Source: Octopus vulgaris (taxonomy: Eukaryota). Taken from it: DNA of 64,000 bases. Positions 1,658-45,237 of this stretch are shown here, piece by piece. Location of the stretch: assembly GCA_951406725.2 (NCBI GenBank), contig OX597820.1, forward strand, positions 25,048,001-25,112,000. The letters run 5' to 3'. Within the stretch, counting starts at the first letter, position 1, and every line of letters begins with the position of its first letter. A model generated the notes under the pieces. The model was given only the letters and a program-made list of their open reading frames with translations, was not told the DNA's origin and ran no database searches. The translations under genes were made by a program, and so were the position numbers.

Positions 1658-1702
<45 letters not shown>

Positions 1703-1788
1703 TAGAGAGACAAAACCACTATTTTGCAAAACAAACAAGGAAAGACTTAATCAATACATAAAATTTTAATAAATAGTCAAAAAAACCG

Positions 1789-1831
1789 CCACTACAATCG
1801 TTTCTTGTCTTGATCGACAATCTTCAGGTGG
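1789..1831 (-). ncRNA. mirror copy of hammerhead H1
   Basis: Exact reverse complement of 1890-1932 in the other palindrome arm. Confidence 0.8.
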
Positions 1832-1889
1832 ACTTCAATAAGTCAATTTCAAATTATGACTTCATAATTTGAAATTGACTTATTGAAGT

Positions 1890-1932
1890 CCACCTGAAGA
1901 TTGTCGATCAAGACAAGAAACGATTGTAGTGG
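1890..1932 (+). ncRNA. minimal type-I hammerhead ribozyme motif (family H1)
   Basis: CCAC-CTGAAGA-TTGTC(gatcaa)GACAA-GAAA-CGATT-GTA-GTGG. Stem I CCAC/GTGG, intact core, GUA cleavage triplet, self-complementary stem III ACGAUUGU. Confidence 0.8.
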
Positions 1933-2108
1933 CGGTTTTTTTGACTATTTATTAAAATTTTATGTATTGATTAAGTCTTTCCTTGTTTGTTTTGCAAAAT
2001 AGTGGTTTTGTCTCTAATAATATTTTATAATATTTTACTATAAAATTGGATTTAATCCTAAATCTGATTTTTTTCCCTGTAAATTTGGATTTATTCCCTA
2101 ATATTTAT

Positions 2109-2148
<40 letters not shown>

Positions 2149-6879: not shown

Positions 6880-8112
6880 ACAACAATTCCCAATCCGGTT
6901 TGGTGCTCCTTGGGCTCCCCAATCACTGACCTTGCCTTTGAGTCCATCTTCCAGTCGAAGGTGGCTGCCCCTGAGCAACTGCTGAAAATTACTGAAGCAA
7001 TCGAACCCCATTAAGGTTTTTTCATACTTAGGAATTACCTCTCGATCCCTAAGCTTCTATATTTGCTCAGAGCCAGTTCATCTTACCGATTCCCATCGTG
7101 CCTCCAATGCTTTGACAACCTAATCTTTGAGAGACTGAAATGATTGGTCAATGTCAGACTCTCTCCAGTGTCCCGCGATCAGGCTGCATTGCCCAAGCGA
7201 TTTGGAGGTCTTGGTCTTCTTAAGTGTTCGTCCGTCTCTCTCTCCTGCTTCCTTTCCTCCACTCACGCCTGCTCCACTCTGGTGAGCAACATCCTCTCCT
7301 CTCCAACACTGGAGGGAATTGGGCTTCTCTGCTCCTGAGAAGGTGGAGGACTGTGGGAGTCAGAGAGCTTGAGACAATATAATTTCGAAGGCCACCTTCG
7401 ACTCCCTCTTCATCTAGTCGGACCAGTTCTTAAGATGCCGCTTACTGTCTGCTAGCGCCAAACACTCAGTGAGTGGCTAATGTTGATGGCCTACTCAGCT
7501 TGGACGAACTTCGTGTCTCCATTGCCCTCAGAGTGGGAGGTGACGTATGCACGGGTTTGATCTGTCGTTGTGGCCGGCTCCTCGACTCCACAGGCCTCCA
7601 TGGTCTTCCTTGCTACCTGAATGCTAGTCGCTTCGCGCGTCATACGGAGTTGAACCTGATACTCAAGAGGAGCTTGGTCCGGGCAAACATTTCCTCCATC
7701 TTGGAACCCATCTGGATTGTCCAGATGTGATGGGAAAAGACCTGACGGCCTCACCCTTTGCCCCTGGTCACGAAGCAGATGCCTTGTCTGGGATGTCACA
7801 GTTAGCGATTCCTTTGCTTCTTCTCACATCCTAGATGCTGTGGTCAGGGTGAGATCCACAACTTCTGCGGCCGAGCGGAACAAAATCCTAAAATACCGCG
7901 ATCTGCCGGCCAACTACAGATTCCATCCTGTGGCGTTCGAGATGTTTGGTGGGGTCGAACCACTTACTGCGAGATTCCTGTCTTCACTGACAACTCGCCT
8001 AGCAGAGGTAACTGGCGAGGCTCGTGAGGATGCTTGGCTGTTCCGGCGCATCAGCCTCGCCATCACCCGCGGCATCGCTGCAAGCGTGCTGGCGTGCCTG
8101 AATAGCCATTAG
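6880..8112 (+). mobile_element. 3' part of a CRE-like non-LTR retrotransposon with a restriction-like endonuclease, degenerate
   Basis: LPKRFGGLG, CRCG..GLHGLPC, RHTELN, RPDGLT..WDVTV, KILKY and FHPVAFE motifs. Confidence 0.8.
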
Positions 8113-12900: not shown

Positions 12901-14337
12901 ACTCTCTCAAGGTGTCACTCAGTGGGACTGAACCGAGAACCATGTGGTTGGAAAGCAAACGTCTTACCACTCATTCATGCCTTCGCTTATTTATTGGGTT
13001 ACTCTTTTACTTGTTTCAGTCATTTGACTGTGGCTATGCTGGGGCACTGCCTTTAGTCGAGCAAATAAACCCCCAAAGCTTATTCTTTGTAAGCCTTGTA
13101 CTTATTAAGTCAGACCCTCTTTTTGTCGAACCGCTAAATTGCGGCGATGTAAACAAACCAACAACGGTTGCCAAGCGGGGTGGGTACACACACACAAACA
13201 CATGCACAAGGACGCACGGACGCGCGCGCGCTCATATACAATACATGTTTTTTTGTTTTTGTTTTTGCGAACAGTGATTGTGTATTTTTGTGCATGTACA
13301 AATGTATGTATGTGTATGTATGTATGTATGTGTTCACGTCCTCCAATTATGTATATACATATACTGTATACACACACACACACACACACGTCTCCCGCTC
13401 TTTCTCTGTATGAATGTGTGTGTGTGTGTGTGATTCTGAAAGTTTTATTCATAACACGAATACAGACGCGTATTATTTAAATTATATTATGGAAACTGAC
13501 GTACCGTATGTCTTTGTTGGGGAAGTGATATACAATTGAAAGGAAATTTGATACACGAATCCTTTTCCTTTGTTGCTAAGTTTGAATCGAATTAAGGGTT
13601 CAGACACGTGTGGAGATTTTAAAAATTACACGTTTCAGCTCTTTTTCTTCTTTTCTCATTTCAGAGACCACACCCAGTTTGTATAGCCATCGATCGATCG
13701 GATTAATAAAGTCTAGTGATCAGTTTATAATTCGAGTACGTGATTTGGTTAATGTTTTCTTTTCACACCTGGACACCTAAGCAAAAAACATGAGTGTAAT
13801 AGGTGTTAAAAAATGTGTATTAAACGAATATGAAAACGCGCTAACCACCCGGGCGATGGGGGGTGGACGTTCAGAAATCATATTCAACACCGTATTTATG
13901 AACTTGTTTCTCACCAAGATACAGGGGATCATTTTGAAAACCTTTTTCTATTACTCAAACGGAAAATAAATGAATCTCTTTTCTCTTTTCTCTTTTACTT
14001 GTTTCAGTCATTTGACTGTGGCCATGCTGGAGCACCGCCTTTAGTCGAGCAGATCGACCCCAGGACTTATTCTTTATAAGCCTAGTACTTATTCTATCGG
14101 TCTTTTTTGCCGAACCGCTAAGTTACGGGGACGTAAACACACCAGCATCGGTTGTCGAGCGATTTGGGGGCGACAAACACAAACACACACACACACACGT
14201 ATATACGACGGGCTTTGAGTTTCCGTCTACCAAGGCTTTGGTCTGCACGAGGCTATAGTACCAGACACTTACTCAAAGTGCCACGCAGTGGGACTGAACC
14301 CGGAACCATGTGGTTCGTAAGTAAGCTACTTACCACA

Positions 14338-14370
14338 CAGCCATAAACTTTTTTCCATTACACTCAAGCA

Positions 14371-14407
<37 letters not shown>

Positions 14408-14444
14408 TTTTTTTTGCATGAGTGTAATGGAAAAAAGTTTACGG

Positions 14445-14447
<3 letters not shown>
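14338..14447. mobile_element. 110-bp mini-MITE with a central (TA)n tract
   Basis: CAGCCATAAACTTTTTTCCATTACACTCA / TGAGTGTAATGGAAAAAAGTTTACGGCTG-TA. Confidence 0.6.
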
Positions 14448-14479
<32 letters not shown>

Positions 14480-21807: not shown

Positions 21808-22796
21808 GGTATTAGCTGGATATTATTGTTTGGGACAGACAAGAAAATTTATCTACTGTCATAGAGGTCAGCTGTCTTGCTGATACGAATATCTCTTTTA
21901 AAATAAAATAAAAGGAAGATACCTGCTTTGATCCAGCTTCTTTATCCAGATAATATCATCACGTTTATACCAATACTAATTGGTATATTTGGCTTTGTGA
22001 GTAAATGCTTAACCAACAGTTGGATAAGCTTGGATTTTTTGAAAAAGATATCGACCAACTAACTCTCACATTACAAATGCAATCCGTAATTGAGACAGTA
22101 AAAATATGCAAGACTCTTCTCTAGTTTCAAAAGTATCATTGTTTGCATATTATACATTCCAACAATCGATCTTTGTTAGAAGCTATCACCTTCCTTGGAG
22201 AAATAGGCATAGGAGTGGCTGTGTGGTAAGTAGCTTGCTTACACACCATATGGTTCTGGGTTCAGTCCCACTGTGTAGCACTTTGGGCAAGTGTCTTCTA
22301 GTCTAGCCTCGGGCCGACCAAAGCCTTGTGAGTGGATTTGGTAGACGGAAACTGAAAGAAGCCCATCGTGTATATGTATATATATGTATGTATGTGTATA
22401 TGTTTGTGTGTCTGTGTTTGTCCCACCAACATCGCTTGACAACCGATGCTGGTGTGTTTATGTCCCTGTAACTTAATGGTTCAGCAAAAGAGACTGGTAG
22501 AATAAGTACTAGGCTTACAAAGAATAAGTCCTGGGGTCGATTTGCTTGGCTAAATGTGGTGCTCCAGCATGGCCACAATCATATGACTGAAACAAGTAAA
22601 AGAGTGATTGAAAAGAGAACTACACACATACGCACACACACACACACACTATCCGTTTGATAATAATGGTTAAATACACAACAACAAATATATAGTGTAC
22701 AGTTCTATATTTAAGAGATAAGGAATTATGTACATTATTTACATCATTTACATTATTTACATTCAACGGATATTTGTCCTCATCTTGTTTGTTGTT

Positions 22797-22842
22797 AACA
22801 CAACATTTCAGCTGATATACCCTCCAGCCTTCTTCAGGTGTA
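22797..22842 (-). ncRNA. hammerhead motif H2 (left copy)
   Basis: TACAC-CTGAAGA-A-GGCTG(gagggtatat)CAGCT-GAAA-T-GTT-GTGTT on the minus strand. Confidence 0.65.
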
Positions 22843-23144
22843 TTGGGGAAATTTCAAACCTGGGTTCTCATTCCTAAGTTATTTTTCAATGTTATTATTA
22901 TTATTATTATTGCTATTATTATTGTTGTTGTTGTTGTTCAGGTCACTGCTTGGAATCAAACTTGGAATCTTGGCGTTAGTAGCCAACACTCTTAACCACT
23001 ACACCTACAGGCACATGGTGTAGTGGTTAAGAGCATGGGCTACTAACCCTAAGATTCCAAGTTCGATTCTAAGCAGTGACCTGAACAATAACAACAACAA
23101 CAACAACAATAATAATAATGATAATGATAATGATAACAATAATA

Positions 23145-23301: not shown

Positions 23302-23350
23302 CATCAAAAAATACCTTAGGAATGAGAATCCAGGTTTGAAATTTCCCCAA

Positions 23351-23396
23351 GACATCTGAAGAAGGCTGGAAGGTATATCAGCCAAAACGTTGTGTT
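23351..23396 (+). ncRNA. hammerhead motif H2 (right copy, G12 mutated to A)
   Basis: GACAT-CTGAAGA-A-GGCTG..CAGCC-AAAA-C-GTT-GTGTT. GAAA is degraded at a CpG site. Confidence 0.55.
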
Positions 23397-23817
23397 AACA
23401 ACAAACAAGATGAGGGCAAATATCCTTCAAATGTAAATAATGTAAATAATGTAATTATGTTGTGTGTTTAATTTCAAGAAATGTGATCTGATATTTCAAT
23501 AATTTGGAAACCGTCACCAGAAGATAGTTTAGAAATTTCTTAACCAAAATCACCATATATAAAGATTATTCAACTTACCTCTTCGCACTATTTGAAGCTC
23601 TCCTCCTCTTCTCTTTGGCTTGTTATTCTATTTCTGTATCACAATGCTTTGTGCACACTGGGACAACACTCTTCTTTCAACTGTCTAAAATACTAATAAA
23701 AGAAACATGCACTTGACACACATAGAGCTTATAAATTATTATGAATTCAGCACTTGTTAAAAGTATGTGTGTGTGGTGGGGTCCTCTGATATCACATAGA
23801 GTGTTAAGCACTTAGAG

Positions 23818-24166
23818 CAGCGTTTCTCAACCGGAGTTCCTAAGAACCCTAGGATTCCACGAAAGGCTCCTAGGAGTTCCGTGAGAAAGAGTGAGATAAG
23901 CTAATGCTAATATTATGATCCTAATATTACTATACATGCACAACATATTCTTGGTTATTGTAATATAGACATCATCCTATCTAACCTATTATGTTATCAA
24001 AAAAATATAAGAACCATTGGGGATATATTTAGTGTTGTCTGTAATTTATGGACACCCTATATATACATATATGTATATATATATAATATAAATTAGAGAT
24101 AAAACCACTATTATGCAACAAATTGAATTTTTCCCTGAAAGTTTGGAGTTATACTCCCTAATATTA

Positions 24167-24197
<31 letters not shown>

Positions 24198-25391: not shown

Positions 25392-25422
<31 letters not shown>

Positions 25423-25604
25423 TCGAAAAATACCTTAGAAACGAGAACCCAGGTTCGAAATTTCCCCTAAGTCACCTGATGAAGGCTGGAGGGTGTATCA
25501 GCCAAAACGTTGTGTTAACAACAAACAAGATGAGGGCAAATATCCGTCAAATGTAAATAATGTAAATAATGTTCATAATTCCTCATCTCTTAAATATAGA
25601 ACTG
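25088..25604 (+). mobile_element. third H2 element, interrupted by a Dong-LINE 3' UTR fragment in its (AAT)n tract
   Basis: Same tRNA head and tail as 23010-23454. The insert 25224-25390 matches the reverse complement of about 17228-17400. Confidence 0.75.
25471..25516 (+). ncRNA. hammerhead motif H2 (third copy, G12 mutated to A)
   Basis: GTCAC-CTGATGA-A-GGCTG..CAGCC-AAAA-C-GTT-GTGTT. Confidence 0.55.
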
Positions 25605-26319
25605 AAATACACACTTTGATGTAAAATCTGTGGTTTCACTTAATTACTGGTATTCTCACCTGAGCCTGACACTAAGTGTTAATCATGGAGATTCAGTGAA
25701 TGATACTTGCATTCTACAGGCGTTTATCATTATAGTCCATTGTTGTGCAGATGTCTCTTTATGGTGACCTCATTTGTTATTCTGTCAACTGAAAGCCTTG
25801 TGGTGATCGAAGAATGGTAACATGTGCAGACAAGCAGGAAGTGCACAATAATTTACACACGTTTGTCTGTCAACTATGCTTCAAAGCAAGCAGATTACAT
25901 ACAACAGGACTGCATAGTCACCTGAGAGGTCAAGGATGGAAAATCAGAAATACCATTGACAATGAGGAAGCAGTAGGAAGCAGCAATCATCTGTGAAGAT
26001 GGAGCAATTACCGTGTATATGTATATATTTGTGAGTGTGTGTGTGTGTGAGTGTGAGTGTGTGTGAGTGTGTCTATATATATATATATATATATCTCTTT
26101 TACTCTTTTACTTGTTTCAGTCATTTCACTGCTGCCATGCTGGAGCACCGCCTTTAGTCGAGCAAATCGCCCCCAGTACTTATTCTTTGTAAGCCTAGTA
26201 CTTATTCTATCAGTCTCTTGTACCGAACTGCTAAGTTACGGGGATGTAAACACACCACTATCGGTTGTCAATCGATGTTGGTGGGGACAAACACAGACAC
26301 ACAAACATATACACACACA

Positions 26320-26350
<31 letters not shown>

Positions 26351-26471
26351 CAACAATAAAGGAACGGCCATAATAGGCCATTCACCCACTAGAAATAACA
26401 GCCAAAGCTTCAACCGCAAATAAAAGTTAATTCAGTAAACCAGGAGAAAATTTAAAAACATTTACCCTGTA

Positions 26472-26578
26472 ATTTCTTATACGATATACCGTTTCATCTG
26501 CTGATTAATGGTAAACTAACCTGATTAAATTAAATCAAGCCAATCTTCCACAGGCCCTCAGATTCTTCAGTAAGAAAT
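26472..26578 (-). ncRNA. hammerhead H3, copy 1
   Basis: Reverse complement of 27452-27558. Confidence 0.85.
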
Positions 26579-26964
26579 AGCCCAAGACGGAACAGATATT
26601 TTCACGAGGCATTTCCGACGTTGCCAAGTTTATATCTGACCTAAAATTTTCAAATCGTCGCACTCGCGTCAAATTTATCGGCAGCAAATAAATATAAGCC
26701 GTCGATTCCATTACGGAATTAACCAGAAAATTCATAATTAATCAATATAGGGTGGCAAAAAAATTTTGTAGAATTCTTTTGCCACCAGCGGCCTAGTAGG
26801 AAAAAATTTAAAATAGTCATAGACCATTTTTAAGTTCAACATCAACAATAAAGGAACGGCCATAATAGGCCATTCACCCACTAGAAATAACAGCCAAAGC
26901 TTCAACCGCAAATAAAAGTTAATTCAGTAAACCAGGAGAAAATTTAAAAAACATTTACCCTGTA

Positions 26965-27071
26965 ATTTCTTATACGATATACCGTTTCATCTGCTGATTA
27001 ATGGTAAACTAACCTGATTAAATTAAATCAAGCCAATCTTCCACAGGCCCTCAGATTCTTCAGTAAGAAAT
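26965..27071 (-). ncRNA. hammerhead H3, copy 2
   Basis: Reverse complement of 27452-27558, 493 bp from copy 1. Confidence 0.85.
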
Positions 27072-27451
27072 AGCCCAAGACGGAACAGATATTTTCACGA
27101 GGCATTTCCGACGTTGCCAAGTTTATATCTGACCTAAAATTTTCAAATGTCGCACTCGCGCCAAATTTATCGGCAGCAAATAAATATAAGCCGTCGATTC
27201 CATTACGGAATTAACCAGAAAATTCATAATTAATCAATATATGGTGGCAAAAGAATTCTACAAAATTTTTTTTGCCACCCTATATTGATTAATTATGAAT
27301 TTTCTGGTTAATTCCGTAATGGAATCGGCGGCTTATATTTATTTGCTGCCGATAAATTTGGCGCGAGTGCGACGATTTGAAAATTTTAGGTCAGATATAA
27401 ACTTGGCAACGTCGGAAATGCCTCGTGAAAATATCTGTTCCGTCTTGGGCT

Positions 27452-27558
27452 ATTTCTTACTGAAGAATCTGAGGGCCTGTGGAAGATTGGCTTGATTTAA
27501 TTTAATCAGGTTAGTTTACCATTAATCAGCAGATGAAACGGTATATCGTATAAGAAAT
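27452..27558 (+). ncRNA. type-I hammerhead ribozyme H3 with extended stem II
   Basis: ATTTCTTA-CTGAAGA-ATCTG...(58 nt)...CAGAT-GAAA-CGGTATATC-GTA-TAAGAAAT. Perfect 8-bp stem I, intact core, GUA triplet. Confidence 0.85.
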
Positions 27559-27782
27559 TACAGGGTAAATGTTTTTTAAATTTTCTCCTGGTTTACTGAA
27601 TTAACTTTTATTTGCGGTTGAAGCTTTGGCTGTTATTTCTAGTGGGTGAATGGCCTATTATGGCCGTTCCTTTATTGTTGATGTTGAACTTAAAAATGGT
27701 CTATGACTATTTTAAATTTTTTCCTACTAGGCCGCTGGTGGCAAAAGAATTCTACAAAATTTTTTTTGCCACCCTATATTGA

Positions 27783-27831
<49 letters not shown>

Positions 27832-28544
27832 CAATGGGCATCTTTCAGTTTCCGCCTACCTACCAAATCCACTCACAAGGCTTTGGTCAGCCTGAGACTA
27901 TAGTAGAAGACACTTGCCCAAGGTGCCATGCAGTGAGAATGAACCCGGAACCATGCGGTTGGTAAGCAAGCTACTTACCACAGAGCCACTCCTGTGCCTA
28001 TATATGAGCATCGGTTGTCAAGCGATGTTAGGGAGACAAACACACACATATATGTATATATATATATACGACGGGCTTCTTTCAGTTTCCATCTACCAAG
28101 TCCACTCACAAGACTTTGGTTGGCCCAAAGCTATAGTAGAAGACACTTGCCCAAGGTGCCACACAGTGGGACTGAACCCGGAACCATGTGGTTGGTAAGC
28201 AAGCTACTTACCACACAGCCAACTATGTAAACTTCAAGGTGTCTCAACCTGAAGACTAAGCTATGCTGAGAAGCGTTCATTGTGCAACAACTTACATAAT
28301 TGAACATCATTGAGTTATGAAACAATTATAGTCAGTATTCTACCTGTTCCACTACTTATATTTTTAAAAATTTTATTTGCTCATTTTTAGCATTAGTTGT
28401 TAAACCACAAACTGTGTTGCAAACAATCATCTTATCACTTAATCACTATTAGATTCATCAAACTCTTACCAAATCCTATACACTGTCCTCAGATTAACAC
28501 CCAAACACTCTGAAATGTTTGTATTGGAGCTTCTAGCATGAACA

Positions 28545-35150: not shown

Positions 35151-37426
35151 CATCATCATCATCATCATCATCATTTAGCGTCCGTTTTCCATGCTAGCAT
35201 GGGTTGGACGGTTCTACTGGGGTCTGTGAAGCCAGAAGGCTTCATCAGGCCCAGTCAAATCTGGCAGTGTTTCTACGGCTGGATGCCCTTCCTAACGCCA
35301 ACCACTCCGTGAGTGTAGTGGGTGCTTTTTACGTGCCACCCGCACTGGTGCCAGACAGAGCTGGCAAACGGCCACGAACGGATGGTGCTTTTTATGTGCC
35401 ACCGGCACGAGGGCCAGGCGAGGCTGGCAATGGACACGAAACGGGGCGGTGCTGGCAACGGTCGCGAAACGGAAAGTTCTCTTACATGCCACCGGCACTG
35501 GTAACACATCTGCAATTTCCATTGATCGATTTCCATTGATCGATTTCGATTCTGATCCTCACTTGCCTCAATGGGTCTTCACAAGCAGAGTTTCGACATG
35601 CCACCGGCACTGGTAGCACATCCGCAATTTCCATTGATCGATTTCGATTCTGATCCTCACTTGCCTCAACACGTCTTCACAAGTAGAGTTTTGTGTCCCA
35701 AGAAGGGAAGGTATGCATACGTAGGCTGGCTCCATCCTATGTAGAAGGCCACGGGTTGTGGACTCACTTGTCCTGCCGGGTCTTCTCGCGCACAGCACAC
35801 TTCCAAAGGTCTCGGTCTCCAGTCATTTCCTCAGTGAGACCTAAAGTTCGAAGGTCGTGCTTCACCACCTCGTCCCAGGTTTTCCTGGGTCTGCCTCTTC
35901 CACAGGTTCCCTCAACCGCTAGGGTGTGGCACTTTTTCACACAACTATCTTCATCCATTCTCGCCACATGACCATACCAGCGCAAACGTCTCTCTTGCAC
36001 ACCACAACTGATGCTTCTTAGGTCCAGCTTTTCTCTCAAGGTACTTACACTCTGCCGAGTGTGAGTACCGGCATTACACATCCATCGGAGCATACTGGCT
36101 TCATTTCTAGCAAGCTTACGCATATCCTCAGCAGTCACGGCCCATGTTTCACTGCCATGTAGCATGGCTGTTCGTACACACGCATCATACAGTCTGTCTT
36201 TCACTCTGTGCGAGAGGCCTTTTGTCACCAGCAGAGGTAAGAGCTCTCTGAACTTTGCCCAAGCTATTCTTACTCTAGCAGTTACACTTTCAGCACACCC
36301 GCCCCCGCTGCTGACTTGGTCACCTAGGTAACGGAAACTATCAACTATTTCTAGTTTTTCTCCCTGGAAAGTGACGGAAGTTGGTCTCAGAGCATTTTCA
36401 GTGTTTATTGTTCCTGAGCATCTGCCACATACAAAAACCATCTTCCTAGTTAGCCTTCCTTTGACATTGCTGCATCTCTTATGTGTCCATAGCTTACACT
36501 TGGTGCATCTTATAGAGTTTCTACCTACACCTTTTCTACAGATCGAGCAGGGCCATCTACCTGAAGGTGTTTGTGATTTGTCTACCTTCCTACTGATTAC
36601 GACTTTGGTTTTAGTTAGATTGACTCTGAGGCCCTTCGATTCTAATCCTTGTTTCCACACCTGAAACTTCTCCTCCAGTTCTGATAGCGACTCAGCAATT
36701 AGAGCAAGGTCATCAGCATAGAGGAGCTCCCAAGGGCATCCTGTCTTGAATTCCTCCGTTATTGCCTGGAGGACTATGATAAATAGGAGGGGGCTGAGTA
36801 CTGAGCCTTGGTGGACCCCTACCTCTACCCGGAATTCTTCACTGTACTCATTTCCAACCCTCACCCTACTAGCGGCATCCCTATACATGGCCCGCACAGC
36901 TCTCACTAACCATTCATCTATCCCTAGTTTCCTCATTGACCACCAGATAAGGGATCGGGGACCCTGTCGAAGGCTTTCTCCATGTCAACAAAAGCCAGGT
37001 ACAGGGGCTTATCTTTGGCTAGGTATTTCTCCTGCAGCTGCCTTACCAGGAATATAGCATCAGTAGTACTTTTCCCTGGCACAAACCCAAACTGCATCTC
37101 ATCTAAACTAACTCTCTCTCTAATTAGTTGGGCTATGACCCTCTCCGTAACCTTCATCACCTGGTCCAACAGCTTGATACCTCTGTAGTTATTTGTATCT
37201 AGGGCATCACCTTTACCTTTGTAGCAGTTGACTATTATACTGCTACACCAGTCATTGGGTATGACCCCTTTGTGTATCACCTGATTAACTATACGGGTGA
37301 CTAGGCTATAGCCGACACTACCAGACATTTTGAGCATCTCTGCAGTGATTCCTGATGGGCCTGGGGCTTTCCCTGTCTTCATGTTTCTAATTGCCTTAGC
37401 TACCACGGAACTATCAACTCGGATAG

Positions 37427-37428
<2 letters not shown>
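35151..37428 (-). mobile_element. 5'-truncated RTE-clade LINE
   Basis: KAPGPSGI, NYRGIKLL, QFGF, FVDMEKAFD, GVHQGSVLSP, YADD and RWYGHV motifs; 3' UTR ends in (ATG)n. Confidence 0.92.
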
Positions 37429-37477
<49 letters not shown>

Positions 37478-38375
37478 CAATGCCCTGATGCAGTACCGAT
37501 GCCCTGATACAGTACCAATGCCCTGATGCAGTACCAGTGCCCTGATGCAGTACCAAGCAGTGGCTCTCGTGGCTTCTGATCTTAACTGATTGGAAGTGTT
37601 ATCATGTACATTGTTTTGTCTTGGTATAAAGGATGTGCTACAGCAAATATTCTGCTCAATACCACAGATTTGCTTGTCAGTTGTTTGACCTTAAGCAGTT
37701 GGGCATGTCCCTTAGTGGCTGACAATATGTGCATCTCTGATCACAAGCAGAAGTAGTGGGGGAGTATCATAGCCGTGTGATGAGAGGAATTCTTTGGGGT
37801 TTGAATAATTCACCTCTGGAAACATGGGTGTTTTGTTCAACATCCTTAAACAACCCTTATTCAGGGACCTTTTGAGTGGGATGGGTTACTCGACCAGAAG
37901 AAAATTCTAACTGGGCCCCACCTGCAAGGTCATGTGCTGTTTATCTTTATATGACATCACCATGTTGTGCAGATATGGTTGTGATGCATGTGCCTGGTGT
38001 ACCATTATCAGATGGCTAGTCATGATGGATATACTGGTCTTTGTATTTTTTACCCCAGTGTCACTTTGATGGCATGCACTGCTCTCTCACTCAATAATAA
38101 TAATCATTATATATATATATAAGAATAAAAGAATATATGTAACTATATATATATATATATATATATTCTTTTATTCATTTACATGTTTCAGTCATTTGGC
38201 TGTTGCCATGCTTGAGTACCACATTAAATGGTTTTAGTCAAAGAAATCTACCCCCAGAACTTATTCGTTGTAAGTCTAGTACTTACTCTATCAGTCTCTT
38301 TTCCTGAACCACTAAGTTATGGAGATGTAAACACACCAACATCGATTGCCAAGCGATGGTGGGGTGACAAACACA

Positions 38376-43224: not shown

Positions 43225-45237
43225 AATGCCAGGGAAAAGCACCACTGATGCCATATTTCTGGTGAGACAGCTGCAGGAGAAATACCTAGCCAAAGATAAG
43301 CCCCTGTACCTGGCTTTCGTTGACATGGAGAAAGCCTTTGACAGGGTCCCCGATCCCTTATCTGGTGGTCAATGAGGAAACTAGGGATAGATGAATGGCT
43401 GGCGAGGGCTGTGCAAGCCATGTACAGGGATGCTGTAAGTAAGGTAAGGGTTGGCAACATGTACACAGAAGAATTCAAAGTAGAGGTTGGGGTCCACCAG
43501 GGTTCAGTACTCAGCCCCTCCTATTTATCATAGTCCTCCAGGCAATTATGGAGGAATTCAAGACAGGTTGCCCCTGGGAGCTCCTATATGCTGACGACCT
43601 TGCTCTAATTGCTGAGTCACTGTCAGAACTGGAGGAGAAGTTCCGGGTGTGGAAGGAGGGTCTAGAATCGAAGGGCCTTAGAGTCAACCTAGCTAAAACC
43701 AAAGTACTAATAAGTAGGGAGGTAGACAATCCACAAATGTCTTCAGGAAGATGGCCCTGCTCGATCTGTAGAAAAGGTGTAGGTAGAAACTCTATAAGAT
43801 GCACCCAGTGTAAGCTATGGACACATAAGAGGTGCAGCAATGTCAAAGGAAGGCTAACTGGGAAGATAGTTTTTGTATGTGGCAGATGCTCAGGAGCAAT
43901 AATCTCTGAAAATCTGCAGAAAACAACTTCCGTCACTTTCCAGGGGGAAAAACTAGAAGTAGTTGATAGCTTCCGTTATCTAGGTGACCAAGTCAGTAGT
44001 GGGGGTGGGTGCATTAAAAGTGTAACTGCTAGAGTAAGAATAGCCTGGGCAAAGTTTAGGGAGCTCTTACCTCTGCTGGTGACTAAAGGCCTCTTGCTCA
44101 GAGTAAAAGGCAGACTGTATGATGCATGTGTACGAACAGCCATGCTACATGGCAGTGAAACATGGGCCATGACTGCTGAGGACATGCGTAAGCTCGTGAG
44201 GAATGAAGCCAGTATGCTCCGATGGATGTGTAATGTCAGCGTGCATACTCGACAGAGCGTTAGTACCCTGAGAGACATGTTGGACCTAAGAAGCATCAGT
44301 TGTGGTGTGCAAGAGAGACAATTGCGCTGGTATGGTCATGTGGCGAGAATGGATGAAGATAGGTGTGTGAAAAAGTGCCAATCCCTAGCAGTTGAGGGAA
44401 CCCGTGGAAGAGGTAGACCCAGGAAAACCTGGGACGAGGTGGTGAAGCACGACCTTCAAACCTTGGGTCTCACTGAGGAAATGACCGGCGACCGAGACCT
44501 TTGGAAATATGCTGTGCGTGAGAAGACCAGGCAGGACAAGTGAGTCCAGCCCACTTATGCATGCCTTTCCCCCCTTGAACACACAAAGACCTGTTGAGGC
44601 AAGCGAAGTCGATATCGAACCTCATCCGATGACAGGTACCTATGGCAACCCCCCTTGCTTGCGAAGACCTGTTGGGGCAAGTGAAATCGAAATTGAACCA
44701 ATCCTATGACTAGCACCCGGCAGATGCCAGGGCCCTGGGACTGGAGGTACGTAAAAAGCACTCTGAATTGTGGCCGATGCCAGCGCCGCCTCGACTGGCT
44801 TCCGTGTCGGTGGCACGTAAAAAGCACCATCCAAATCGTAGCCGAAGCCAGTACCGCCTCGACTGGCTTCCATAAAATGCACCATCCAAATTGTGGCCGA
44901 TGCCAGCGCCGCCTCGACTGGCTTCCGTGTCGGTGGCACGTAAAAAGCACCATCCGAATCGTACCGAAGCCAGTGCCGCCTCGACTGGCTTCCACAAAAT
45001 GCACCAATCCGACCGTGGCCGATGCCAGCCTCGCCTGGCACCAGTGCAGGTGGCACGTAAAAAGCACCCACTACACTCACGGAGTAGTTGGTGTTAGGAA
45101 GGGCATCCAGCTGTAGAAACGTTGCCAGATAAGACCGGAGCCTGGTGCAGCCTTCTGGCTTCCCAGATCCCCGGTCGAACCGTCCAACCCATGCTAGCAT
45201 GGAGAACGGACGTTAAACGATTATGATGATGATGATA
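43225..45237 (+). mobile_element. 5'-truncated RTE-clade LINE inserted in the (TA)n tract of a SINE, antisense in a FAAH intron
   Basis: RT ORF 43548-44543 is nearly identical to 35764-36936; 3' UTR has internal tandem repeats and a (GAT)n tail. Confidence 0.92.

What the first reader, a model, noticed from the sequence alone, without database searches (positions are those of the whole stretch)
26349..27790. Retrozyme-like array: ~493-nt unit with an intact hammerhead, two direct copies plus one inverted copy
Seen: a non-coding unit present as a full copy, a partial tandem copy and an inverted copy. Each has a complete type-I hammerhead: 8-bp stem I ATTTCTTA/TAAGAAAT, CUGAAGA, stem II ATCTG/CAGAT with a long insert, GAAA, near-palindromic stem III and a GUA triplet. 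The copies differ at only a few positions, and the array sits in the (TA)n tract of a SINE that resumes afterwards. Known: Penelope-like element (PLE) pseudo-LTRs carry hammerheads and form partial tandem and inverted arrays; retrozymes are non-coding hammerhead-bearing units processed to monomeric, often circular, RNA. Inference: a minus-strand transcript would self-cleave at 26973/26972 and 26480/26479 to release a 493-nt monomer, consistent with a young cephalopod retrozyme family mobilised by a PLE reverse transcriptase.
Basis: partly seen in the sequence, partly recalled or inferred. Interest (0 to 1): 0.85.

Follow-up and report, generated by a model that had tools for sequence, protein, structure and literature searches.

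The report
Octopus hammerhead retrozyme with Penelope footprint
A 493-base non-coding repeat of octopus DNA carries a predicted self-cutting RNA motif and sits here as a mirrored, more-than-one-unit insertion whose ends resemble those left by Penelope-type jumping genes, so it is likely a small, probably circular RNA parasite that those elements copy into the genome.

Summary
Three near-identical copies of a 492-494-nt unit, each with a complete type-I hammerhead, lie head-to-head inside the (TA)n tract of a SINE. The host is an octopus. The arms are 1.8 and 1.1 units long, run uncut across the cleavage site, and end at two different points 108 nt apart: the 'inverted copy plus tail' footprint of Penelope-like elements (PLEs). 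The family is high-copy and heterogeneous in two DNA runs. In one probable RNA run it assembles as a single branch-free 493-nt loop; another holds a hammerhead-strand copy with ADAR-type A-to-G hyper-editing that includes the cleavage-site A. Verdict: a non-LTR retrozyme, most likely mobilised in trans by a PLE (about 0.72). Not shown: cleavage, covalent circularity, the partner PLE, independent support for the inversion junction. Corrections: the family is not uniformly young; the ribozyme probably works as a dimer; read-through of this whole locus would bury one hammerhead in double-stranded RNA. A new member of a known kind, with an unusually informative insertion footprint.

The parts
26090..26348 (-). 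3' part of the host SINE, ending in the left CA/(TA)n tract (target site)
26349..26841 (-). Copy A, one full unit; its 3' end (26349) is end site 1, joined to (TA)n
   Evidence: the same end joined to (TA)n appears in run X3 (table 7)
26472..26578 (-). Hammerhead A; predicted cleavage 26480/26479
26480..26972 (-). Predicted 493-nt monomer between two cleavage sites
   Evidence: closed 493-nt loop in run X4
26842..27241 (-). Copy B, 400 nt, 5'-truncated at the base of the internal hairpin
26965..27071 (-). Hammerhead B; predicted cleavage 26973/26972
27242..27280 (+). Inversion centre: the unit's own hairpin (10-bp perfect arms), in the orientation of copy C; head-to-head junction at 27241/27242
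27242..27790 (+). Copy C, 549 nt = 1.11 units; its 3' end (27790) is end site 2
27452..27558 (+). Hammerhead C; predicted cleavage 27550/27551
27683..27790 (+). 108-nt 'tail': present at the right end of the insertion, absent from the left end
27791..27992 (-). Right (TA)n tract and 5' part of the same SINE (tRNA-like head read by eye; ARAGORN finds no tRNA gene)
1688..2110 (.). Second, distinct hammerhead family (F2) with the same architecture in the (TA)n of another copy of the same SINE: perfect 154-bp inverted repeat, hammerheads at 1831-1789(-) and 1890-1932(+), one-sided tail of about 80-90 nt
24075..24190 (.). Stump of F2 that keeps the same two outer ends

Best explanation
This is a multicopy, non-coding, hammerhead-bearing 493-nt repeat (a non-LTR retrozyme) that was likely copied into a (TA)n tract in one event by the reverse transcriptase and endonuclease of a Penelope-like element, from a circular or multi-unit RNA. 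Steps: (1) some tandem copies are transcribed on the hammerhead strand (strand shown by editing in one run; RNA status of the runs is the tool's guess). (2) Neighbouring hammerheads would pair their palindromic stem III as a dimer and cut out 493-nt monomers, which a host ligase would circularise (predicted; about 0.55 for a real circle). (3) A PLE protein would nick both strands of (TA)n and prime cDNA from each nick at two internal start sites 108 nt apart (inferred from the two ends). (4) Each cDNA ran more than one unit, 893 and 549 nt, straight through the cleavage site (shown), which a linear cleaved monomer could not template without jumps (132 and 240 nt at most). (5) The two cDNAs would join through the complementary arms of the unit's hairpin, giving the head-to-head junction (inferred). 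(6) Transcripts across such mirrored insertions would fold into long double-stranded RNA that ADAR hyper-edits (editing pattern shown in one low-depth haplotype; its source locus inferred).
For: Architecture and ends; repeated by the distinct family F2 and its stump. Same footprint as PLEs: inverted 5'-truncated copy plus one-sided tail (PMC8557442, PMC3846280), two internal RT start sites with both strands cut and extended, AT-rich targets (PMC11167929). Run X4 (RNA?): 1 contig laid, 523 nt = 493 + 30, closing on itself, with none of the common alternative alleles of the DNA runs, whereas DNA run X1 with the same organism label gives 4277 contigs with many alleles; run X3 also closes the loop and shows end site 1 joined to (TA)n. 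Hyper-editing: over 26451-26480, 12 of 14 hammerhead-strand A read as G with no other change; all 12 have U or A as 5' neighbour, the 2 unedited have G or C (read by eye; upstream G depletion in PMC5625713). Structure: circular monomer z -4.8 against 40 shuffles, active hammerhead within 2.2 kcal/mol of the circle's best fold, dimer better than two monomers by 5.5; a double change at the centre of the stem III palindrome (26486+26487; 8-10% in X1, 73-75% in X5) keeps self-complementarity at a pair that can form only between two hammerheads. No coding signal. Fold-back from either arm alone does not give the observed locus: the central loop has C's orientation, yet A+B is longer than C, and B and C differ at the site equal to 26702, which is polymorphic family-wide.
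Against: No autonomous PLE sharing the unit was found: no genome is held, three collections gave no true match, and none of the 16 loose ends shown leads recognisably into a coding region (133 more not shown). Contigs cannot tell a circle from a long head-to-tail transcript, and X3/X4 are only guessed to be RNA. No strand-change joint is listed in any of the 4 runs, so the inversion junction has no independent support. Structure-conservation counts are individually weak: 7 of 9 variants at paired positions keep the pair (61% expected for random transitions), 0 of 14 hit the 11 core bases (P 0.20). The tail is 108 nt, not the 30-40 bp of described PLEs. In the one PLE tested in vitro cleavage was not needed for insertion (PMC11167929), and 8 of 9 Xenopus retrozyme dimers did not cleave (10.64898/2026.07.22.740005). 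The edited haplotype has depth 2-3 and may be one molecule. The B/C difference could be a polishing error.
Confidence: 0.72

Rival explanations
1. The unit is the pseudo-LTR of an autonomous PLE, and the locus is an ordinary cluster of 5'-truncated PLE ends with an inverted copy; no independent non-coding element exists.
For: Palindromic stem III, the unusual 10.1 position and close inverted hammerhead pairs are typical of PLE pLTR hammerheads (PMC4209133). F2 and its stump look exactly like this. One 318-nt contig in X3 matches only 69 nt of the unit and runs on unlike it.
Against: All three copies share one cyclic order with no truncation scar between units; X4 gives a closed loop with no branch in or out, where an expressed pLTR-ORF-pLTR transcript should give an open path; the X3 loose end resembles a diverged unit when read by eye; no protein homology on either side of the hammerhead.
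Confidence: 0.14
2. A PLE-derived satellite that spreads mainly at the DNA level or from uncleaved read-through multimers; the hammerhead is a relic and no circular RNA is made.
For: PLE hammerheads cleave poorly in vitro (PMC4209133) and cleavage was dispensable for insertion (PMC11167929); in linear B+A RNA the active folds lie 3-8 kcal/mol above the best fold; a closed contig also arises from multimers.
Against: The compensatory change in the dimer-only pair and an unmutated core among listed variants; fixed RT-like ends at (TA)n in two organisms' data argue for retrotransposition rather than unequal crossing-over.
Confidence: 0.11
3. The inverted copy (or the tandem) is an assembly artefact from fold-back reads or mis-joined repeats.
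For: No read support for the centre junction; one-base indels between copies look like long-read errors.
Against: The flanks are not mirrored but are consecutive halves of one SINE; the two arms end at different sites, one confirmed in an independent run; F2 repeats the design; the head-to-tail continuity is in 4 of 4 runs.
Confidence: 0.03

Closest known systems
Metazoan non-LTR retrozymes (Cervera and de la Pena 2020, PMC7229834; Li, Clavereau and Pollet, bioRxiv 10.64898/2026.07.22.740005)
   Same: Non-coding tandem unit, one type-I hammerhead per unit, GC under 50% (35%), highly self-paired predicted circle, multicopy, expressed; meets the preprint's working definition (two consecutive units with a complete hammerhead).
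   Different: 493 nt against 150-450 bp in the first paper (within 51-972 bp of the second); stem I 8 bp, 58-nt hairpin on stem II and 12-nt palindromic stem III instead of the canonical compact motif; inserted head-to-head with a PLE tail, which the parts of those papers that I read do not describe for retrozymes; first cephalopod case in my searches.
Insertions of endonuclease-bearing Penelope-like elements (PMC3846280, PMC8557442, PMC11167929)
   Same: Partial tandem plus inverted 5'-truncated copy, palindrome at the inverted junction, one-sided tail between two ends, AT-rich or microsatellite target, palindromic stem III hammerhead (PMC4209133).
   Different: No ORF; the tail is 108 nt, not 30-40 bp; both arms exceed one unit. 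Naiads, the clade noted for (TA)n targets and present in Octopus, lack canonical hammerheads, so the partner is more likely Neptune or Penelope/Poseidon type (inferred).
Non-autonomous Chlamys elements such as MRC1 (PMC8557442)
   Same: Non-autonomous PLE derivatives that form pLTRs and multi-copy head-to-tail insertions.
   Different: Green-algal; that clade lacks canonical hammerheads; 3' similarity to an autonomous family was shown there and is not shown here.

Membership tests
Non-LTR retrozyme | Tandem units of a few hundred bp, each with a complete type-I hammerhead | tested here: met
Non-LTR retrozyme | Non-coding; no long terminal repeat structure | tested here: met
   longest stop-free frame inside the unit 68 aa; no Pfam or homologue; cyclic unit. 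PBS and PPT were not searched for separately
Non-LTR retrozyme | Multicopy and dispersed in the genome | tested here: met
   4277 and 12458 contigs laid in two DNA runs; 19 of 24 listed runs hold half or more of the words, four organism labels; no copy number can be given
Non-LTR retrozyme | Highly self-paired monomer | tested here: met
   z -4.4 linear, -4.8 circular, 59% paired; antisense also folds well (z -3.9)
Non-LTR retrozyme | Transcribed and accumulating as monomeric circular RNA | tested here: inconclusive
   closed 493-nt loop and hammerhead-strand editing, but contigs cannot separate circle from multimer and RNA status is guessed
Non-LTR retrozyme | Self-cleavage at the hammerhead | not testable with these tools
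   only folding energies
Penelope-like element (autonomous) | ORF with telomerase-like RT and GIY-YIG endonuclease between the repeats | tested here: not met
   no ORF between hammerheads 493 nt apart
PLE-mobilised non-autonomous element | Partial tandem, inverted 5'-truncated copy, palindrome at the junction, one-sided tail, AT-rich target | tested here: met
   tail longer than described
PLE-mobilised non-autonomous element | Sequence shared with the pLTR of an autonomous PLE in the same genome | not testable with these tools
   no genome held; collections empty; active Penelope families are reported for O. vulgaris (PMC13282606, Table 1)
Minimal PLE-type hammerhead | Palindromic helix III suited to a dimer | tested here: met
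   12-mer self-duplex -13.6 against hairpin -0.2 kcal/mol; compensatory centre change
Minimal PLE-type hammerhead | Short helix I (4-5 bp) and conserved G10.1-C11.1 | tested here: not met
   helix I is 8 bp and 10.1-11.1 is A-U

The most novel reading that the evidence does not exclude
An expressed circular-RNA parasite of octopuses whose genomic copies record the PLE mechanism directly: two cDNAs primed from opposite nicks at two fixed start sites, each rolling past unit length around the circle and joined through a built-in hairpin; and whose spread is checked by the octopus's ADAR, which edits the cleavage-site adenosine and may feed edited RNA back into the genome (A/G changes on the hammerhead strand outnumber C/T changes 14 to 5 among common DNA variants, P 0.036).
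Probability: 0.3. Interest if true: 0.75.

Novelty: new member of a known kind. Interest (0 to 1): 0.5.

Why it matters
That PLEs mobilise animal retrozymes is a standing hypothesis resting on shared ribozymes, co-occurrence and pLTR phylogeny. A retrozyme inserted with the full PLE footprint (two fixed ends, tail, inverted join) is a different, mechanistic kind of evidence, and a high-copy family makes it countable: thousands of insertions would show where reverse transcription starts, how far it rolls and where the arms join. It also offers a compact 493-nt natural substrate for in vitro PLE assays and a place where self-cleaving RNA meets the very active ADAR of cephalopods.

Tried and rejected
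Own genome: none held, so no copy number, flank survey or partner PLE. Rfam at E<=1: no hammerhead among 41 matches; miRNA hits are just hairpins. A 16-nt pattern in viral contigs gave 57 loci, all chance: no alignment to the unit longer than 32 nt. Longer patterns: 0 in metagenome contigs twice, 0 in viral, 0 in GTDB contigs. Remnant PLE coding sequence: 0 Pfam families for 4 frames, no longer homologue at E<=1 for 2 frames (weak negatives). Host exon beside the array: the one frame tried has stops; host gene strand unknown. The long ORFs scanned are non-PLE RT fragments or have no family. Earlier scan notes: nothing for this genome or by sequence. Simple fold-back as the sole origin of the inversion was considered and rejected on loop orientation and arm lengths. 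Bisulfite conversion as the source of the clustered changes was rejected because it gives C/T or G/A, not T/C (own knowledge). A statistical case from covariation alone was tried and is weak (105 of 495 random four-transition sets keep the palindrome).

Full report
Observation. The window holds a 492-nt-period tandem at 26349-27279 and an inverted copy to 27790. Read on the hammerhead strand, copy B (27241 to 26842, 400 nt) and copy A (26841 to 26349) run leftwards, copy C (27242 to 27790, 549 nt) rightwards, so the 5' ends meet in the middle and both 3' ends abut (TA)n. The copies differ by 1-2 substitutions and 1-2 one-base indels per pair. The hammerhead is as described in all three; a strict descriptor finds 3 in the window and 0 in 200 shuffles. 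Rfam does not recognise it (0 of 41 matches at E<=1). The flanks are consecutive parts of one SINE. The host is an octopus: the two named hits of highest identity for a neighbouring LINE RT are O. bimaculoides (83%) and O. vulgaris (86%) among 120 listed.

The ribozyme. In isolation the active fold lies 1.8 kcal/mol above the best fold; the stem III 12-mer is a poor hairpin (-0.2) but a good self-duplex (-13.6). In B+A RNA the double hammerhead costs 2.9 kcal/mol against 8.4 for two monomers; in the circle the active fold costs 2.2. In a read-through of the whole locus all 107 nt of hammerhead B pair with the antisense of C, so this locus yields a monomer only from a start inside B. Family variants (table 3): 14 in the hammerhead at 4% or more in X1 or X5, none in the 11 core positions (P 0.20), 7 of 9 at paired positions keep the pair (61% expected), 2 break it. 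The informative change is the double one at 26486+26487, seen together on the same contigs in an X1 loose end: it swaps the central pair of the palindrome, which can form only between two hammerheads. It may be a single historical event.

The family. Of 24 runs listed, 19 hold half or more of the sampled words, under four organism labels. I laid 4 of the 24 on one permuted unit, 26410-26902. DNA runs X1 and X5 gave 4277 and 12458 contigs, with 1020 and 4713 under 95% alike and several sites where the window's allele is the minority: a high-copy, heterogeneous family of which the window's copies are one subfamily. X4 (guessed RNA, same organism label as X1) gave one contig, 523 nt, covering 26410-26664 and 26635-26901: a 493-nt loop plus a 30-nt overlap, with no branch and none of the common alternative alleles of the DNA runs. 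Random genomic DNA should have brought those alleles, so this looks like selective expression (inferred; the runs were picked for likeness to the window). X3 (guessed RNA, another label) gave 12 contigs; the main ones also close the loop, and one loose end joins (TA)n to exactly the end seen at 26349. Two overlapping X3 loose ends, depth 2-3, differ from the window over 26451-26480 only by T-to-C on the plus strand, 12 of 14 possible, with 17 other letters unchanged (read by eye); five more such changes of the same contig are in table 3, six other differences of that contig are not itemised. All 12 have a 5' U or A on the hammerhead strand and the two spared have G or C, as expected for ADAR (PMC5625713). 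This shows the hammerhead strand as RNA in long duplex, and one edited base is the cleavage-site A, which read as G would break the NUH rule (rule recalled). A genomic copy of an edited RNA is not excluded. No strand-change joint was listed in any run, and none of the 16 loose ends shown (133 hidden) leads recognisably into coding sequence.

How it was inserted. The two arms end at different points of the unit, 108 nt apart. PLE insertions are described as partial tandems with an adjacent inverted 5'-truncated copy and a one-sided 30-40-bp tail (PMC8557442), with palindromes at the inverted junction (PMC3846280); a purified PLE protein cut and extended both strands of AT-rich DNA and began at two internal RNA sites that delimit the tail (PMC11167929). 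Here the junction falls at the base of the unit's own hairpin. Fold-back from the left arm would leave the loop in the other orientation; fold-back from the right arm could not make an arm longer than itself. Two separately primed cDNAs annealing by the hairpin's arms explain orientation, lengths and the B/C difference at a family-wide polymorphic site (inferred; resembles twin priming of L1, recalled). A cleaved linear monomer offers only 132 or 240 nt from those ends, against 893 and 549 observed, so the template was a circle, an uncleaved multimer, or was jumped repeatedly. A second family (F2, 1688-2110; no alignment to the unit at E<=1) shows the same design in the same SINE tract, and a stump at 24075-24190 keeps both of its ends, so the design is biological and common in this genome.

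Comparison and membership. It works like a non-LTR retrozyme and meets the sequence-level criteria; expression as a circle is inconclusive and cleavage untested. It is not an autonomous PLE. Its link to a particular PLE could not be tested. The retrozyme-PLE link is already proposed (PMC7229834) and supported by phylogeny in vertebrates (10.64898/2026.07.22.740005), so the concept is known. Searches for a cephalopod retrozyme or hammerhead and for ADAR editing of retrozymes listed no such report; the library lacks most subscription papers and Repbase, and supplements that I could not see (PMC7229834, the 2026 preprint, file 1 of PMC4209133, the O. vulgaris repeat library) may list this family.

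What I read. 10.64898/2026.07.22.740005: parts 1-3 of 5. PMC7229834: parts 2-4 of 6. PMC11167929 and PMC4209133: parts 1-2 of 4 each, plus three supplement passages of the latter. PMC13282606: parts 1-2 of 3. PMC8557442, PMC3846280, PMC5625713: passages only.

Verdict. Real, correctly described, most likely a PLE-mobilised retrozyme (0.72). New member of a known kind; interest 0.5, above routine because the footprint, the closed loop and the editing together make the mobilisation hypothesis directly testable in one high-copy family.

Noticed in passing
window 1688-2110: Second hammerhead family (F2): perfect 154-bp inverted repeat with a 2-nt loop, minimal hammerhead in each arm, 8-nt palindromic stem III that resembles a variant of the main family's stem III, one-sided tail, in the (TA)n of the same SINE family.
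   Followed up: partly
window 24075-24190: About 100-nt stump of F2 made of just its two outer ends, back to back, between TA-rich tracts.
   Followed up: partly
window 14337-14448: 112-nt imperfect palindrome (91%) with (TA)n at its centre and at its right side, next to a SINE end; no hammerhead found.
   Followed up: no
window 22700-22891, 23302-23452, 25421-25610: Three copies (86-92%) of a repeat that starts next to (AAT)n; two carry a hammerhead-like core with a 6-bp stem II but AAAA in place of GAAA, perhaps a decayed PLE end.
   Followed up: partly
window 35764-37598 (-) and 43443-44543 (+): LINE reverse transcriptase fragments; the first has a PHD-like finger after the RT and close Octopus relatives.
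   Followed up: partly
window 7473-8112 (+): Frameshifted fragment resembling the restriction-like endonuclease end of a non-LTR element (recalled motif; no Pfam hit).
   Followed up: no
window 26410-26902, run X5: Among 19 common transitions in a DNA run, 14 are A/G and 5 C/T on the hammerhead strand (P 0.036; one copy-private site left out): tolerance of G-U pairs or edited RNA written back.
   Followed up: partly
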